In this document: positions 2,733 through 4,716 of the stretch, in pieces | Numbering within the stretch: the first letter of the stretch is position 1 | How the letters are laid out: the number at the start of each line of letters is the position of its first letter | Source: Stenotrophomonas riyadhensis | GTDB lineage: Bacteria > Pseudomonadota > Gammaproteobacteria > Xanthomonadales > Xanthomonadaceae | Assembly (NCBI RefSeq): GCF_025697965.1 | Contig: NZ_JAHWBK010000003.1 | Strand: one strand, 5' to 3' | Length of the DNA stretch: 32,000 nucleotides | Position numbers and translations under genes: made by a program | Notes under the pieces: model-generated | Seen by the model: only the letters and a program-made list of their open reading frames with translations | Told to the model about the DNA's origin: nothing | Databases searched by the model: none

Positions 2733-4004
2733 ATGCCTATCGAACTGTTTACCGGCCAGCCTGGCAACGGCAAAACCGCTCTGATGATGGAGCGCCTTGT
2801 TGCAGAGGCCAAGGCTGCGGGTCGGCCGATCTTCGCAGCTGGCATCAATGGCCTGAGTCCTGGGCTCGCTACGATTCTTGACGATCCGACGCGCTGGAAT
2901 GAGATAGACCCAACTGTCGAGGGCACTTGCGTCTGCGGAATCGAGTTCACACCTGATGGCACCCCGATTCCGCGACCTCCGCACGCCCACACGTTGGTTC
3001 CGGATGGCTCGCTGATCTTCGTTGATGAAGCATGGAAGTACTTCGGCCATCTGCACAACGCGACGAATCAGAAGACGCCAAAGCACGTTCTAGCGCTGAG
3101 CGAGCATCGTCACCGTGGCATTGATTTCGTGTGGACAACGCAGCAGCCCAATCAGCTTTATCCGTTTATTCGGGGTCTGATCGGCTCTCACTCGCACGTG
3201 GTTCGGCGGTTCGGAACCAAGATGATCGACGTGTATCGCTGGGGTGAATTGAACGAGGAAATCAAGTCATCTGCGAAGCGCGACTTGGCACAGCGCACTA
3301 CGCGGCTGCTGCCCTCCCAGATATACGGTCAGTACAAGTCTGCTGAGGTCCACACGATCAAGGCGCGGATACCGCTCAAGGTGCTGGCGCTGCCGCTTAT
3401 GGCCCTTGTTGGCCTTGGTCTCGCCTATTGGGCATATACGCTGCTGCGACCGCCCGCTGTTGCTGGTGTTGCGGACTCAAAGGGGACGCAATCGGCGTCA
3501 GCCGATGCGGCCCCTGCGCACGCTGGTTCCAGTTCGCGCAAGGAAGATGCGCCGCGCTGGCCCACAGCCGCTGCCTACGCCAAGGATCATTTGCCCCGCA
3601 TCAGCACCATGCCCTGGACTGCGCCGGTCTTCGATGATCGTCAGGCGCGGTCGGACCCGCAGCTGGTGTGCATGTCGTCCATGGAGGGGCTGGACGCTCA
3701 GGGCGTGCGTCAAGAGGCAAGCTGTCGCTGTCTCACCGAACAGGGGACAGCCTATGAATTGAGTCAGCCCGAGTGCCGCACGCTTGCACGTAATGGCCCT
3801 GTATACAACCCGTATCGAGAGCGGTCGGAGGATCGACGCGAGCAGCGCTTCGATGGGGCAGGCCAGCCTCGCGCAGCGGAATCTGTGGGACTGGCGGGCA
3901 GTGTGGTCCAGCACGTCGAGCGAACTATGGGGAGCTTTCCCGAGTCTCCGCCGTTTGCATCGGACAGCTACATGACCACGGCGCCGGGGCCGAACAAGCT
4001 GTGA
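2733..4004 (+). CDS. zot: Zot-like assembly ATPase (pI family), 423 aa
   Basis: Walker A GQPGNGKT at the N-terminus and Walker B-like LIFVDEAW. Central TM (LALPLMALVGLGLAYWAY). The C-terminal periplasmic domain is shared with 7340-8545 (...FPESPP....SYMTTAPGPNKL*). Confidence 0.9.
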   Translation: MPIELFTGQPGNGKTALMMERLVAEAKAAGRPIFAAGINGLSPGLATILDDPTRWNEIDPTVEGTCVCGIEFTPDGTPIPRPPHAHTLVPDGSLIFVDEAWKYFGHLHNATNQKTPKHVLALSEHRHRGIDFVWTTQQPNQLYPFIRGLIGSHSHVVRRFGTKMIDVYRWGELNEEIKSSAKRDLAQRTTRLLPSQIYGQYKSAEVHTIKARIPLKVLALPLMALVGLGLAYWAYTLLRPPAVAGVADSKGTQSASADAAPAHAGSSSRKEDAPRWPTAAAYAKDHLPRISTMPWTAPVFDDRQARSDPQLVCMSSMEGLDAQGVRQEASCRCLTEQGTAYELSQPECRTLARNGPVYNPYRERSEDRREQRFDGAGQPRAAESVGLAGSVVQHVERTMGSFPESPPFASDSYMTTAPGPNKL

Positions 4005-4627
4005 CCAGCAGCGCCCGCGAAGTGCTCAAGTGGCTGGCCGTGGTTCTGATGACGTGCGACCACGTCGCCAAGATCATCTATGGCGGCTATGTGCCAGGTC
4101 TCAGCGAAGCGGGGCGGGTGGCCTTTCCGTTGTTCGCGCTGGTCATGGCGTACAACCTTGCACAGCCGGGTGCCGACGTGCTGAAGTCCGCGCGCAGGCT
4201 GGCACTGTGGGGGCTGATCGCGCAGCCGGTGCATGCGCTCGCGTTCGGCTATTGGTTGCCGGTGAACATCCTGCTCACGTTCGCGCTGTGCGCTGGCGCG
4301 GTCTACTTGGCAGAGCAGCGCAGATGGGGTGTCCTGGCATTCGCCGCGGCGGTGCTTCCGCTGGTCGTGGACTATCAGTGGGCCGGCGTAGGGTTCGTCT
4401 TGTTGGCGTGGTGCGCCTTCAAGTGGCGCCAGTTCTCGCCAATGGTGCCGGCATTCGCCGCGATCTGCTGGTTCAACGGCAACCTGTGGGCGCTGGCGGC
4501 GATTCCGGTGGCGCTGGGCCTGTCTCGGGTGGCGTGGCCGGTGCCGCGCGGGCGGTGGGCCTTCTACGGCTACTACGTGGCGCACCTTGCGTGCATCGGG
4601 CTGCTGGCGCCTATACTGAGGCCATGA
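4001..4627 (+). CDS. traX: TraX-family membrane protein (pilin N-acetylase family), 208 aa
   Basis: GTG start overlaps the zot stop (GTGA). Motifs LKWLAVVLMTCDHVAK, GRVAFPLFALVMAYNL and NILLTFAL match the TraX (PF05857) pattern as I recall it. Polytopic. About 75% identical to 6717-7343. Confidence 0.75.
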   Translation: MTSSAREVLKWLAVVLMTCDHVAKIIYGGYVPGLSEAGRVAFPLFALVMAYNLAQPGADVLKSARRLALWGLIAQPVHALAFGYWLPVNILLTFALCAGAVYLAEQRRWGVLAFAAAVLPLVVDYQWAGVGFVLLAWCAFKWRQFSPMVPAFAAICWFNGNLWALAAIPVALGLSRVAWPVPRGRWAFYGYYVAHLACIGLLAPILRP

Positions 4628-4716
4628 ACCTGCGCCGCTATCTCGATATTCACTACTGGGTTGCCCGATGGATGGATCGGGCATTCGCGCGTCAGCAGAC
4701 ACGCCAGAAGAACTAA
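4624..4716 (+). CDS. conserved 30-aa basic peptide
   Basis: MNLRRYLDIHYWVARWMDRAFARQQTRQKN. Its ATG overlaps the traX stop (ATGA). The same layout and a conserved sequence (MTMRRYFDLHYWVARWLDRAFKRYSRG) occur in prophage 2. Confidence 0.45.
   Translation: MNLRRYLDIHYWVARWMDRAFARQQTRQKN

What the first reader, a model, noticed from the sequence alone, without database searches (positions are those of the whole stretch)
4001..4716. TraX-family gene translationally coupled to zot in two divergent inoviruses, plus a conserved coupled micro-ORF
TraX is known from F-like plasmids as the enzyme needed for N-terminal acetylation of pilin. It is not part of the canonical inovirus gene set (Ff, CTX). 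Here a 208-aa TraX-like polytopic protein starts inside the zot stop codon in both prophages (GTGA at 4001; ATGA at 7340-7343). In both it is followed by a 27-30-aa basic peptide (M..RRY.D.HYWVARW.DRAF) whose ATG overlaps the traX stop. Retention and identical coupling in two otherwise diverged phages argue for a function in the phage life cycle. Possible roles are N-acylation of the major coat protein (structurally analogous to F-pilin) or modification of a host pilin receptor for superinfection exclusion.
Basis: partly seen in the sequence, partly recalled or inferred. Interest (0 to 1): 0.7.

Follow-up and report, generated by a model that had tools for sequence, protein, structure and literature searches.

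The report
Pilin-acetylase-like gene in filamentous prophages
Two filamentous prophages each carry a membrane enzyme gene related to the one that acetylates F-pilus protein, already annotated in related phages, and sequence comparisons suggest (without proving) that it modifies the phage's own coat protein.

Summary
Both prophages have a 208-aa TraX/TrbP-family gene that starts inside the zot stop codon. Each is followed by a 27-30-aa basic peptide gene that starts inside the traX stop codon.

The TraX part is not new. The same gene sits directly after zot in the published phages SMA6, Cf1c, XacF1, Xf109, Xf409 and XaF13, and it forms PHROG 5529. I found no functional study of it.

Three things are added here:
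- **Shared module.** The two copies lie in a roughly 770-bp module (72-87% nt identity) inside otherwise unalignable genomes, so they are not independent evidence of retention.
- **Tight junction.** In 116 loci the zot-traX junction is always a 4-nt overlap, a 1-nt overlap or a 1-nt gap.
- **Link to the coat protein.** TraX presence tracks the major coat protein's mature N-terminus. About 110 TraX+ phages start with Ser/Ala/Thr/Gly followed by a Gly/Ser-rich tail, much like acetylated F-pilin (AGSSG). Thirteen TraX- relatives do not, though one starts TTGG.

This indirectly supports coat-protein N-acylation. I found no support for host-pilin modification.

The micro-ORF is a real gene (dN/dS 0.22). 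It occurs in only about a third of TraX cassettes, all Stenotrophomonas-type. Its function is unknown.

The parts
2733..4004 (+). zot/gI (pI assembly ATPase) of prophage A, 423 aa
   Evidence: Pfam PF05707 Zot, E 5e-15. 75% identical to the SMA6 ORF400 region.
4001..4627 (+). traX-A, a 208-aa TraX/TrbP-family polytopic membrane protein. Its GTG start overlaps the zot stop (GTGA).
   Evidence: - Profile matches: PF05857 E 1.5e-44; NF010454 288 bits (cut-off 206); PHROG 5529 E 7e-90.
- AF2 model: 9 helices, pLDDT 82.
- Residues shared with F TraX include D20, H21, R39, N52, R66, Q75, N89, Y125, R183 and H195.
4624..4716 (+). micro-ORF A, a 30-aa cationic amphipathic peptide. Its ATG overlaps the traX stop (ATGA).
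   Evidence: - Sequence read directly.
- 53 homologous copies; dN/dS 0.22 in frame.
- Net charge +5, helical hydrophobic moment 0.64, 5 aromatic residues, no membrane-spanning stretch.
- No Pfam family and no convincing PHROG match; the only PHROG hit is phrog_9048 at E 0.029.
7340..8545 (-). zot/gI of prophage B, 401 aa
   Evidence: Pfam Zot, E 5e-18. 32% identical to zot-A.
6717..7343 (-). traX-B, 208 aa. Its ATG overlaps the zot-B stop (ATGA).
   Evidence: PF05857 E 1.2e-43; NF010454 296 bits. Sequence read directly. 79% identical to TraX-A.
6637..6720 (-). micro-ORF B, 27 aa. Its ATG overlaps the traX-B stop (ATGA).
   Evidence: Sequence read directly. Same family as micro-ORF A.
3930..4700 (+). 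Mosaic module shared with prophage B (about 6650-7415 on the - strand): the 3' end of zot, traX and the micro-ORF core. Boundaries are approximate.
   Evidence: Sliding-window nt identity between A and B is 72-87% inside this stretch and about 40-50% outside it.
679..909 (+). Major coat protein gene (gVIII) of prophage A, the proposed TraX substrate. The leader ends AFA and the mature protein starts SGGGGVDVG.
   Evidence: 83% identical to the Xf109 major coat protein, whose record annotates a 30-aa signal peptide. That places the mature start at SGGGG.
10464..10703 (-). Candidate major coat protein gene of prophage B. The leader ends ALA and the mature protein starts SGGPAEAIT.
   Evidence: ORF and homologues. 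TraX- relatives of this coat start QAAGPGEAIT instead.
6129..6578 (-). Predicted secreted protein resembling Cf1c p6, downstream of micro-ORF B (149 aa)
   Evidence: By eye it resembles Cf1c Cf1cp6; no alignment was run. It has no Pfam hit. In TraX- relatives this gene follows zot directly.
5585..5599 (+). dif/attP core between the two prophages
   Evidence: Exact match to TATACATTATGCGAA, with a second copy at 13175-13189; 0.02 matches expected by chance. The motif is taken from the dif sequence reported for phiLf-type phages.

Best explanation
**Identity (shown).** traX-A and traX-B encode TraX/TrbP-family inner-membrane proteins predicted to have nine helices. The one characterised member of this family is required for N-terminal acetylation of F-pilin. 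[quoted passage not shown]

**Expression (inferred from anatomy).** The scan found no promoter-like site between zot and traX. I saw no Shine-Dalgarno sequence at the junction. The junction is always within 1 nt of a stop/start overlap. TraX is therefore most likely made at low level by ribosomes that terminate on pI/Zot and re-initiate.

**Target (inferred, not shown).** Its most likely substrate is the phage's own major coat protein. Like F-pilin, pVIII is a small inner-membrane protein whose leader is cut off by signal peptidase, leaving a new N-terminus on the periplasmic side. In TraX+ phages that N-terminus is Ser/Ala/Thr/Gly followed by a flexible Gly/Ser-rich tail. TraX would move an acyl group, probably acetyl from cytoplasmic acetyl-CoA, across the membrane onto that alpha-amino group. 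This would remove the one positive charge on an only weakly acidic virion surface.

**Micro-ORF.** It is a real gene for a 22-31-aa cationic, Trp/Tyr/Arg-rich amphipathic peptide, translated by the same stop/start overlap. It travels with traX in about a third of cassettes and is dispensable in the rest. I guess that it acts at the cytoplasmic face of the membrane as an accessory to TraX or to assembly. That is the weakest step.
For: **Family**
- Pfam, NCBIfam and PHROG matches are above the curated cut-offs where cut-offs exist.
- The protein is 31% identical to F TraX, and the TMH1 Asp-His and about 40 other columns are invariant across phage, chromosomal and F sequences.
- The AF2 model has nine helices, as described for TraX in PMC12423673.

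**Operon position**
- The junction is a 4-nt overlap, a 1-nt overlap or a 1-nt gap in 116 of 116 loci.
- The scan found no promoter-like site between zot and traX.

**Coat link**
- Every TraX+ coat recovered starts S/A/T/G followed by a Gly/Ser-rich stretch, for example SGGGGVDVG, SGGPAEAIT, SGGGGDFDG and SGSSSPGAA.
- In loci fetched by coat similarity alone, 81 were TraX+. The 14 that were TraX- (zot present, at least 700 nt downstream) start AVDV, ADVDV, AAIDV, AGIDV, QETGAIDV or QAAGPGEAIT.
- Both states occur in both coat families. They also occur within one Zot cluster, where the TraX- Zot is 73% identical to a TraX+ one.
- Isolated TraX- phages (phiLf-UK, SMA9, SMA7, phiSHP2) have leaderless coats, and PSH1 starts GDLATAATEG.
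- Mature F-pilin starts AGSSGQD.
- Coat ectodomain side-chain charge averages -1.4 in TraX+ phages and -2.4 in TraX- phages.
- TraX is a clean presence/absence insert between zot and the p6-like gene.

**Micro-ORF**
- dN/dS is 0.22 in frame.
- All 43 distinct micro-ORF-bearing traX ends use NNA|TGA, against 10 of 89 ends without it.
- It persists beside TraX proteins only 50% identical to TraX-A.
- It lies inside the shared module.
Against: - There is no biochemical evidence; the coat link is correlation only.
- The TraX+ phages are related to one another. I count only about three independent TraX/coat contrasts, on a crude UPGMA clustering of Zot.
- One TraX- phage, L164, has a TTGG start.
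- At least 12 Stenotrophomonas species carry an orphan chromosomal TraX that is 62-66% identical, has no phage genes nearby and sits next to an alpha/beta hydrolase. TraX proteins of this clade may therefore have a non-coat substrate.
- As I recall, the IncP pilin partnered with TrbP ends up cyclised rather than acetylated, and TraX is dispensable for F-pilus formation. Membership of the family does not guarantee an essential or identical reaction.
- As I recall, the Xf coat protein (SGGGG...) was sequenced chemically in 1978. If Edman degradation read from Ser1, alpha-N-acetylation is excluded for Xf. I could not retrieve that paper.
- The fold search gave no significant PDB match.
Confidence: 0.5

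Rival explanations
1. TraX is a lysogenic-conversion or exclusion gene. It acylates a host envelope component (a surface protein, a pilus-associated protein or a glycan) so that the lysogen's surface changes and related phages can no longer adsorb. The coat correlation would then be a lineage marker only.
For: - The wider transmembrane acyltransferase (TmAT/AT3) superfamily mostly acylates extracytoplasmic carbohydrates (PMC12423673). As I recall, phage-borne AT3 O-antigen acetylases are classic conversion genes.
- Orphan chromosomal TraX paralogues in Stenotrophomonas core genomes show that non-phage substrates are plausible.
- TraX is dispensable: many related phages lack it.
Against: - The gene sits inside the morphogenesis operon and is coupled to pI. 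It is not an independently promoted gene near the attachment site.
- The only characterised TraX acts on a protein N-terminus.
- This reading does not explain why the coat N-terminus changes together with TraX presence in two coat families.
- By textbook knowledge, the type IV pilin N-terminus is processed and methylated on the cytoplasmic side, so it is a poor candidate.
Confidence: 0.2
2. TraX acts on another phage or assembly protein (pIII, pVI or the periplasmic part of pI), or it is a near-neutral passenger cassette spreading by recombination with no role in the phage life cycle.
For: - The cassette is mosaic and horizontally exchanged, optional and apparently fragmented in phage fSU1.
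- F TraX is not needed for pilus biogenesis.
Against: - The predicted mature pIII N-termini here (LDEQG..., ANTILDQ...) do not carry the Gly-rich tag.
- The protein is well conserved, with 59 invariant columns among 42 homologues of 66-93% identity.
- Junction geometry is conserved in 116 of 116 loci, which argues for selection.
Confidence: 0.15
3. The micro-ORF is not an independent gene. Its conservation would reflect a DNA or RNA element, or a frameshift extension of TraX.
For: - The micro-ORF frame is open across the whole traX gene in both copies (ORFs 4030-4716 and 6637-7314). This is expected in high-GC DNA but would permit a -1 frameshift fusion.
- It has no Pfam family and no convincing PHROG match; the only PHROG hit is at E 0.029.
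- It is absent from two thirds of cassettes.
Against: - Substitutions are concentrated at third codon positions; dN/dS is 0.22 in frame against 0.66 and 1.95 off frame.
- The ATG is invariant, with NNA|TGA in 43 of 43 cases against 11% elsewhere.
- Reading the sequence by eye, I see no slippery heptamer before the stop.
- Only stand-alone 30-aa proteins, and no fusions, were found in the 5.8-billion-protein collection.
Confidence: 0.05

Closest known systems
TraX/TrbP-like genes of Xanthomonadaceae filamentous phages (PHROG 5529): SMA6 ORF192 'trbP-related', Cf1c Cf1cp5 'transfer protein', XacF1 ORF9, Xf109 ORF8 and Xf409 gp04 'conjugal transfer protein TrbP', XaF13 ORF8
   Same: - Same gene in the same position directly after zot, at 58-80% amino-acid identity.
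- Same coat type with an SGGGG or TGGGG mature start.
- SMA6 also carries the micro-ORF.
   Different: - None in kind; the window holds two further members, in tandem at dif.
- The SMA6 record starts the gene at an internal ATG (192 aa) and does not annotate the micro-ORF.
- Xanthomonas members are 215 aa and lack the micro-ORF.
- I found no functional study.
F-plasmid TraX, required for N-terminal acetylation of F-pilin
   Same: - Same Pfam family, at 31% identity, with a shared Asp-His in TMH1 and other invariant residues.
- The proposed substrate has the same topology: a small inner-membrane protein cut by leader peptidase, leaving a small-residue, Gly/Ser-rich N-terminus (AGSSGQD against SGGGGVD or SGSSSPG).
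   Different: - 208 aa against 248 aa; it lacks the roughly 27-residue N-terminal extension of F TraX.
- It scores below the F-type equivalog cut-offs: TIGR02755 61 bits against 149, and NF010260 54 bits against 419.
- It is encoded by a phage beside pI/Zot, not in a conjugative transfer operon.
- Its activity and substrate are untested.
IncP (RP4-type) TrbP
   Same: NCBIfam files both window proteins under the TrbP subfamily model NF010454, at 288 and 296 bits against a cut-off of 206, over the full length of the 209-position model.
   Different: - There is no Tra2/Trb operon here.
- As I recall, TrbP is not essential for RP4 transfer and the IncP pilin is cyclised, so the TrbP reaction is itself unknown. 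I did not compare directly with the RP4 TrbP sequence.
Transmembrane acyltransferase (TmAT / AT3, Pfam clan CL0316) enzymes, for example HGSNAT, OafB and phage O-antigen acetylases
   Same: - Proposed mode of action: a membrane pore passes an acyl group from cytoplasmic acyl-CoA to an acceptor outside the cytoplasm (PMC12423673).
- HGSNAT gives the highest TM-scores in the fold search.
   Different: - That paper calls TraX a borderline member: nine helices, TMH1 Arg replaced by Lys, and a protein rather than carbohydrate acceptor.
- The Foldseek matches are not significant (E about 1, TM 0.37-0.40).

Membership tests
TraX family (Pfam PF05857) | Full-length profile match above the curated gathering score | tested here: met
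   153 and 150 bits against a cut-off of 25, covering profile positions 2-216 of 217.
TraX family (Pfam PF05857) | Polytopic inner-membrane protein with about nine transmembrane helices | tested here: met
   The AF2 model (pLDDT 82, pTM 0.78) has nine helices spanning residues 3-206. PMC12423673 describes TraX as having nine TM helices.
TraX family (Pfam PF05857) | Conserved residues shared with the characterised F TraX (TMH1 Asp-His, the GRxAFPLFALV block, and others) | tested here: met
   Five-way alignment with F TraX. D20, H21, G38, R39, A41-V48, N52, R66, W70, G71, Q75, N89, Y125, G129, P182, R183, Y192 and H195 are invariant.
TraX family (Pfam PF05857) | Required for N-terminal acetylation of a pilin-like protein | not testable with these tools
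   Needs mass spectrometry of the coat protein with and without traX. Only a correlation with the coat N-terminus is available.
F-type TraX equivalog (TIGR02755 / NF010260) | Score above the equivalog cut-off | tested here: not met
   61 bits against 149, and 54 bits against 419. It is a family member but not an F-type orthologue.
TrbP subfamily (NCBIfam NF010454) | Score above the subfamily cut-off over the full length | tested here: met
   288 and 296 bits against a cut-off of 206, covering positions 1-207/208 of 209.
Conjugative transfer (T4SS) accessory gene | Encoded within a conjugative transfer operon next to pilin or T4SS genes | tested here: not met
   The neighbours are inovirus genes: zot, pVI, pIII, the coat gene, a DUF3653/PSB15 homologue and an XRE-type repressor. 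The region is bounded by dif sites.
TmAT / AT3 acyltransferase superfamily (clan CL0316) | Structural similarity to solved members such as HGSNAT | tested here: inconclusive
   No PDB match at E <= 0.001. HGSNAT chains have the best TM-scores (0.37-0.40) and probabilities (0.33-0.38) in the list.
Integrative Xanthomonadaceae inovirus (prophage) | Zot/pI, leader-bearing or Pf3-like coat, pIII, Rep, DUF3653/PSB15, and integration at XerCD/dif | tested here: met
   - 80% nt identity to SMA6 over window 78-5597 (39% of the 12-kb query aligned), and 91% to SMA9 in parts of 5633-12000.
- dif cores at 5585 and 13175.
- A DUF3653 protein carrying the LTGPWAGFSF motif of PSB15.

The most novel reading that the evidence does not exclude
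A clade of filamentous phages enzymatically acylates its own major coat protein with a phage-encoded TraX. The coat carries a co-evolving N-terminal Ser-Gly-Gly(-Gly) acceptor tag. A subset of these phages adds a 22-31-aa cationic micro-protein as a dedicated accessory. As far as I know, this would be the first phage-encoded capsid-modifying enzyme in Inoviridae. It would also be a direct functional link between maturation of conjugative pilin and maturation of filamentous-phage coat protein.
Probability: 0.4. Interest if true: 0.7.

Novelty: new member of a known kind. Interest (0 to 1): 0.45.

Why it matters
If TraX acylates pVIII, filamentous-phage capsids are not always bare translation products. 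Virion surface charge, aggregation, antigenicity and sensitivity to aminopeptidases would then be tuned by a phage enzyme.

This is relevant to Xanthomonas and Stenotrophomonas phages studied for biocontrol and virulence modulation. It is also relevant to phage-display chemistry, which relies on the free pVIII N-terminus.

It would give the poorly understood TraX/TrbP family a second, genetically simple substrate system. The family has only one characterised member, has no solved structure, and is described as a borderline member of the transmembrane acyltransferase superfamily.

The micro-ORF adds one more conserved small protein that the reference phage annotations checked here miss. If the coat is unmodified, this is simply an accessory gene of unknown role that is already annotated.

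Tried and rejected
- **Micro-ORF homology.** It has no Pfam family, and the only PHROG hit is weak (E 0.029). An HMM built from 37 distinct peptides found no distant or embedded homologue in the six-frame translation of 245 loci. The 5.8-billion-protein search returned only 30-aa stand-alone peptides and no fusions. I rejected it because I see no slippery site by eye, the ATG is invariant, and no fused proteins were found.\n- **Leader peptide.** I considered the micro-ORF as a leader for a downstream gene and rejected it, because prophage A has no downstream same-strand gene.\n- **pVII/pIX analogue.** I considered this and rejected it, because the peptide has no hydrophobic span.\n- **Zot C-terminal tail.** I tested whether the conserved Zot tail (…SYMTTAPGPNKL) is specific to TraX+ phages.
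Full report
**1. Observation**

| Feature | Prophage A (+ strand) | Prophage B (- strand) |
|---|---|---|
| zot | 2733-4004 | 7340-8545 |
| traX (208 aa) | 4001-4627, GTGA overlap with the zot stop | 6717-7343, ATGA overlap with the zot stop |
| micro-ORF | 4624-4716, 30 aa, ATGA overlap with the traX stop | 6637-6720, 27 aa, ATGA overlap with the traX stop |

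Both 208-aa proteins match Pfam TraX (PF05857) at E 1e-44 and 1e-43. Both match NCBIfam TrbP (NF010454) at 288 and 296 bits, above the cut-off of 206. Both upstream genes match Pfam Zot.

**2. Context**

The window holds two integrative filamentous prophages in convergent orientation at dif.
- Exact copies of the 15-bp dif core TATACATTATGCGAA lie at 5585-5599 and 13175-13189.
- Prophage A is SMA6-like: 80% nt identity over window 78-5597. Prophage B is mosaic and partly SMA9-like: 91% identity in pieces.
- Each carries a coat gene, pIII, pVI and zot, followed by traX and the micro-ORF.
- On the opposite strand each has a DUF3653 protein with the LTGPWAGFSF motif of the packaging-signal-binding protein PSB15.

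**3. The TraX part is already known**

The same gene lies directly after zot in several published phages.

| Phage | Annotation of the gene |
|---|---|
| Stenotrophomonas phage SMA6 | 'trbP-related' |
| Xanthomonas phage Cf1c | 'transfer protein' |
| Xanthomonas phage XacF1 | ORF9, hypothetical |
| Xanthomonas phage Xf109 | 'conjugal transfer protein TrbP' |
| Xanthomonas phage Xf409 | 'conjugal transfer protein TrbP' |
| Xanthomonas phage XaF13 | ORF8, 'TrbP; TraX superfamily' |

- It forms PHROG 5529.
- Of 87 phage records with a detectable Zot homologue, 12 records (7 phages) carry TraX. All are from Xanthomonas or Stenotrophomonas hosts, though one, XaF13, is filed as 'Vibrio phage XacF13'.
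- IMG/VR holds at least 193 further copies.
- I found no paper that tests its function.

**4. The two copies are not independent**

The two Zot proteins are 32% identical and the two TraX proteins 79%. Nucleotide identity between the prophages is about 45% through zot. It rises to 72-87% from about 3930 (the last 70 nt of zot) to about 4700 (the end of the micro-ORF core), then falls to about 40%. traX and the micro-ORF are therefore one exchanged cassette. The wider survey replaces it.

**5. Survey of the junction**

In 116 loci with zot upstream of traX, the zot stop and traX start were arranged as follows:
- a 4-nt overlap in 78 loci (ATGA in 63, GTGA in 15);
- a 1-nt overlap in 27 loci;
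- a 1-nt gap in 11 loci.

The scan found no promoter-like site between the genes, and I see no Shine-Dalgarno sequence at the junction. Translation by termination-reinitiation is the natural reading, but it is inferred. TraX- relatives have zot followed directly by the p6-like secreted-protein gene, so traX is a clean optional insert.

**6. What TraX is**

- **Homology to F TraX.** TraX-A is 31% identical to F TraX. It shares the TMH1 Asp-His, the GRxAFPLFALV block, and N52, R66, Q75, N89, Y125, R183 and H195.
- **Structure.** The AF2 model (pLDDT 82) has nine helices. This matches the description of TraX as a nine-helix, borderline member of the transmembrane acyltransferase superfamily (PMC12423673).
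- **Fold search.** Foldseek against the PDB gives nothing significant. Human HGSNAT has the best TM-scores, 0.37-0.40.

**7. The coat-protein link (new here)**

Every TraX+ phage whose coat gene was recovered has a leader-bearing coat. After the AxA cleavage site the mature protein starts Ser/Ala/Thr/Gly followed by a Gly/Ser-rich tail.

| Coat type | Mature N-terminus in TraX+ phages |
|---|---|
| Coat A family | SGGGGVDVG |
| Coat B family | SGGPAEAIT, SGSSSPGAA |
| Cf1c / XacF1 | SGGGGDFDG |

The Xf109 record annotates a 30-aa signal peptide, which places the mature start at SGGGG.

I then fetched loci by coat similarity alone, without reference to TraX.
- 81 were TraX+.
- 14 were TraX-, with zot present and at least 700 nt of sequence downstream.
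- None of the 14 has the tag. They start AVDV, ADVDV, AAIDV, AGIDV, QETGAIDV or QAAGPGEAIT. One starts TTGGVDV.

Both states occur in both coat families. The closest contrast has Zot proteins 73% identical, with coats starting SGGPAEAIT against QAAGPGEAIT. Isolated TraX- phages have leaderless Pf3-like coats (phiLf-UK, SMA9, SMA7, phiSHP2) or a GDLATAATEG start (PSH1).

Mature F-pilin, the known TraX-dependent substrate, starts AGSSGQD. TraX+ coat ectodomains are also less acidic: mean side-chain charge is -1.4 against -2.4. Blocking the alpha-amine would therefore matter more for them.

This is correlation among related phages. I count about three independent contrasts on a crude Zot clustering. 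It is nonetheless what the coat-acylation hypothesis predicts and what the rival hypotheses do not.

**8. Evidence pulling the other way**

- At least 12 Stenotrophomonas species have a syntenic orphan chromosomal TraX. It is 62-66% identical to the phage protein, lies next to an alpha/beta hydrolase and has no phage genes nearby. A non-coat substrate must therefore exist for at least that paralogue.
- TraX is dispensable in F.
- As I recall, the IncP pilin is cyclised rather than acetylated.
- As I recall, the Xf coat protein was chemically sequenced in 1978. A free Ser1 there would exclude alpha-N-acetylation for Xf. I could not retrieve the paper.

**9. The micro-ORF**

- **Coding evidence.** There are 53 copies with 35 distinct core DNA sequences. 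All 17 third codon positions vary. dN/dS is 0.22 in frame, against 0.66 and 1.95 out of frame.
- **Start codon.** Among 132 distinct traX 3' ends, 43 carry the micro-ORF. All 43 end NNA|TGA, which preserves the ATG. Only 10 of the 89 ends without it do so.
- **Range.** It persists beside TraX proteins only 50% identical to TraX-A, as MSKFFDLHYWFARWMDRAFKRR. A 26-aa variant, MSRLFHYLVARWMDRNYLRQQRRGRF, also occurs.
- **Absences.** It is missing from all Xanthomonas phages examined and from some close Stenotrophomonas relatives, so it is accessory.
- **Properties.** Net charge is +4 to +6, there are 5-7 aromatic residues, the helical hydrophobic moment is 0.5-0.7, and there is no membrane-spanning segment.
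- **Database status.** Protein collections hold it only as an unnamed or 'hypothetical' 30-aa product, with no fusions. The SMA6 reference record does not annotate it.
- **Function.** Unknown. My best guess is a peptide that binds the membrane interface and assists TraX or assembly.

**10. Verdict**

The TraX-after-zot arrangement is already annotated in known phages and is confined to Xanthomonadaceae inoviruses. The second, host-pilin modification, has no support. Interest is moderate: nothing here is categorically new, but one mass-spectrometry experiment could establish the first phage-encoded coat-modifying enzyme in filamentous phages.

Noticed in passing
L093-L096, L099, L101-L103, L107, L108, L119, L125 (GTDB Stenotrophomonas genomes), TraX at about 4001-4620 of each locus: At least 12 Stenotrophomonas species have an orphan chromosomal TraX paralogue. 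It is 62-66% identical to the phage TraX and has no zot or coat gene nearby. It sits in conserved synteny, divergent from an alpha/beta-hydrolase gene that is 87-89% conserved, while the TraX itself is only 63-79% conserved between species. Its substrate and its relation to the phage cassette are unknown.
   Followed up: partly
window 3930-4700 against 6650-7415 (- strand): There are sharp mosaic boundaries. The two prophages are essentially unalignable except for a roughly 770-bp module (zot 3' end + traX + micro-ORF core) at 72-87% nt identity. This implies cassette exchange between inovirus lineages.
   Followed up: yes
window 5585-5599 and 13175-13189; hairpins at 5469-5488 (-) and 5756-5775 (+): Two exact dif cores delimit prophage B; the first lies between the two prophages, and prophage A's far end lies beyond the window start. 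The prophages are in convergent orientation. Identical 20-nt GC-rich hairpins followed by a T-run (GACCGGCCCTTGGGCCGGTT) sit mirror-wise on either side of the central dif, in the 5' parts of the two DUF3653/PSB15-like genes.
   Followed up: partly
L001 (SMA6, NC_043029) 4842-5468 and 5465-5554: The reference annotation starts the trbP-related gene at an internal ATG (4890, 192 aa). The GTG at 4842 overlaps the ORF400/zot stop and gives the conserved 208-aa protein. The 29-aa micro-ORF is not annotated.
   Followed up: yes
window 10320-10448 (-): A second, leaderless 42-aa coat-like ORF (MPVVVAIMGYLATAAEVIAGILSVLAAVKGLFLLWGNIKQAK) lies directly downstream of the leader-bearing coat B gene. Its C-terminal half is 51% identical to that of coat B. 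It co-occurs with coat B in 24 of 33 coat-B-bearing loci in the first survey set. Which of the two is the major coat protein is unclear.
   Followed up: partly
L240-L245 coat genes (for example L240 about 2419-2628): TraX- relatives of coat B have a predicted mature N-terminus of Gln (QAAGPGEAIT). An N-terminal Gln can cyclise to pyroglutamate, which would also remove the N-terminal positive charge without an enzyme. This possible functional parallel is speculative.
   Followed up: no
L007 (Xanthomonas phage fSU1, PQ067315) 1-628: The TraX homologue is not next to zot, matches in two pieces (49% identity) and is overlain by opposite-strand annotations. It is probably a pseudogene or a sequencing frameshift in a phiLf-like 10.9-kb phage.
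   Followed up: partly
L088, L096, L103 (GTDB records titled Lactobacillus laiwuensis, Nocardiopsis yanglingensis, Rickettsia endosymbiont): These records hold Stenotrophomonas-type TraX loci at 62-87% identity. This is most likely Stenotrophomonas contamination of the assemblies.
   Followed up: no
window 16430-23003 (-): Two large RHS-repeat / YD-shell proteins (1303 and 882 aa) lie in the chromosomal DNA beyond the prophages.
   Followed up: no
window 4030-4716 (+) and 6637-7314 (-): The micro-ORF reading frame is open across the whole traX gene in both copies, giving 228- and 225-aa ORFs. This is probably a high-GC artefact, but it would allow a -1 frameshift fusion.
   Followed up: partly
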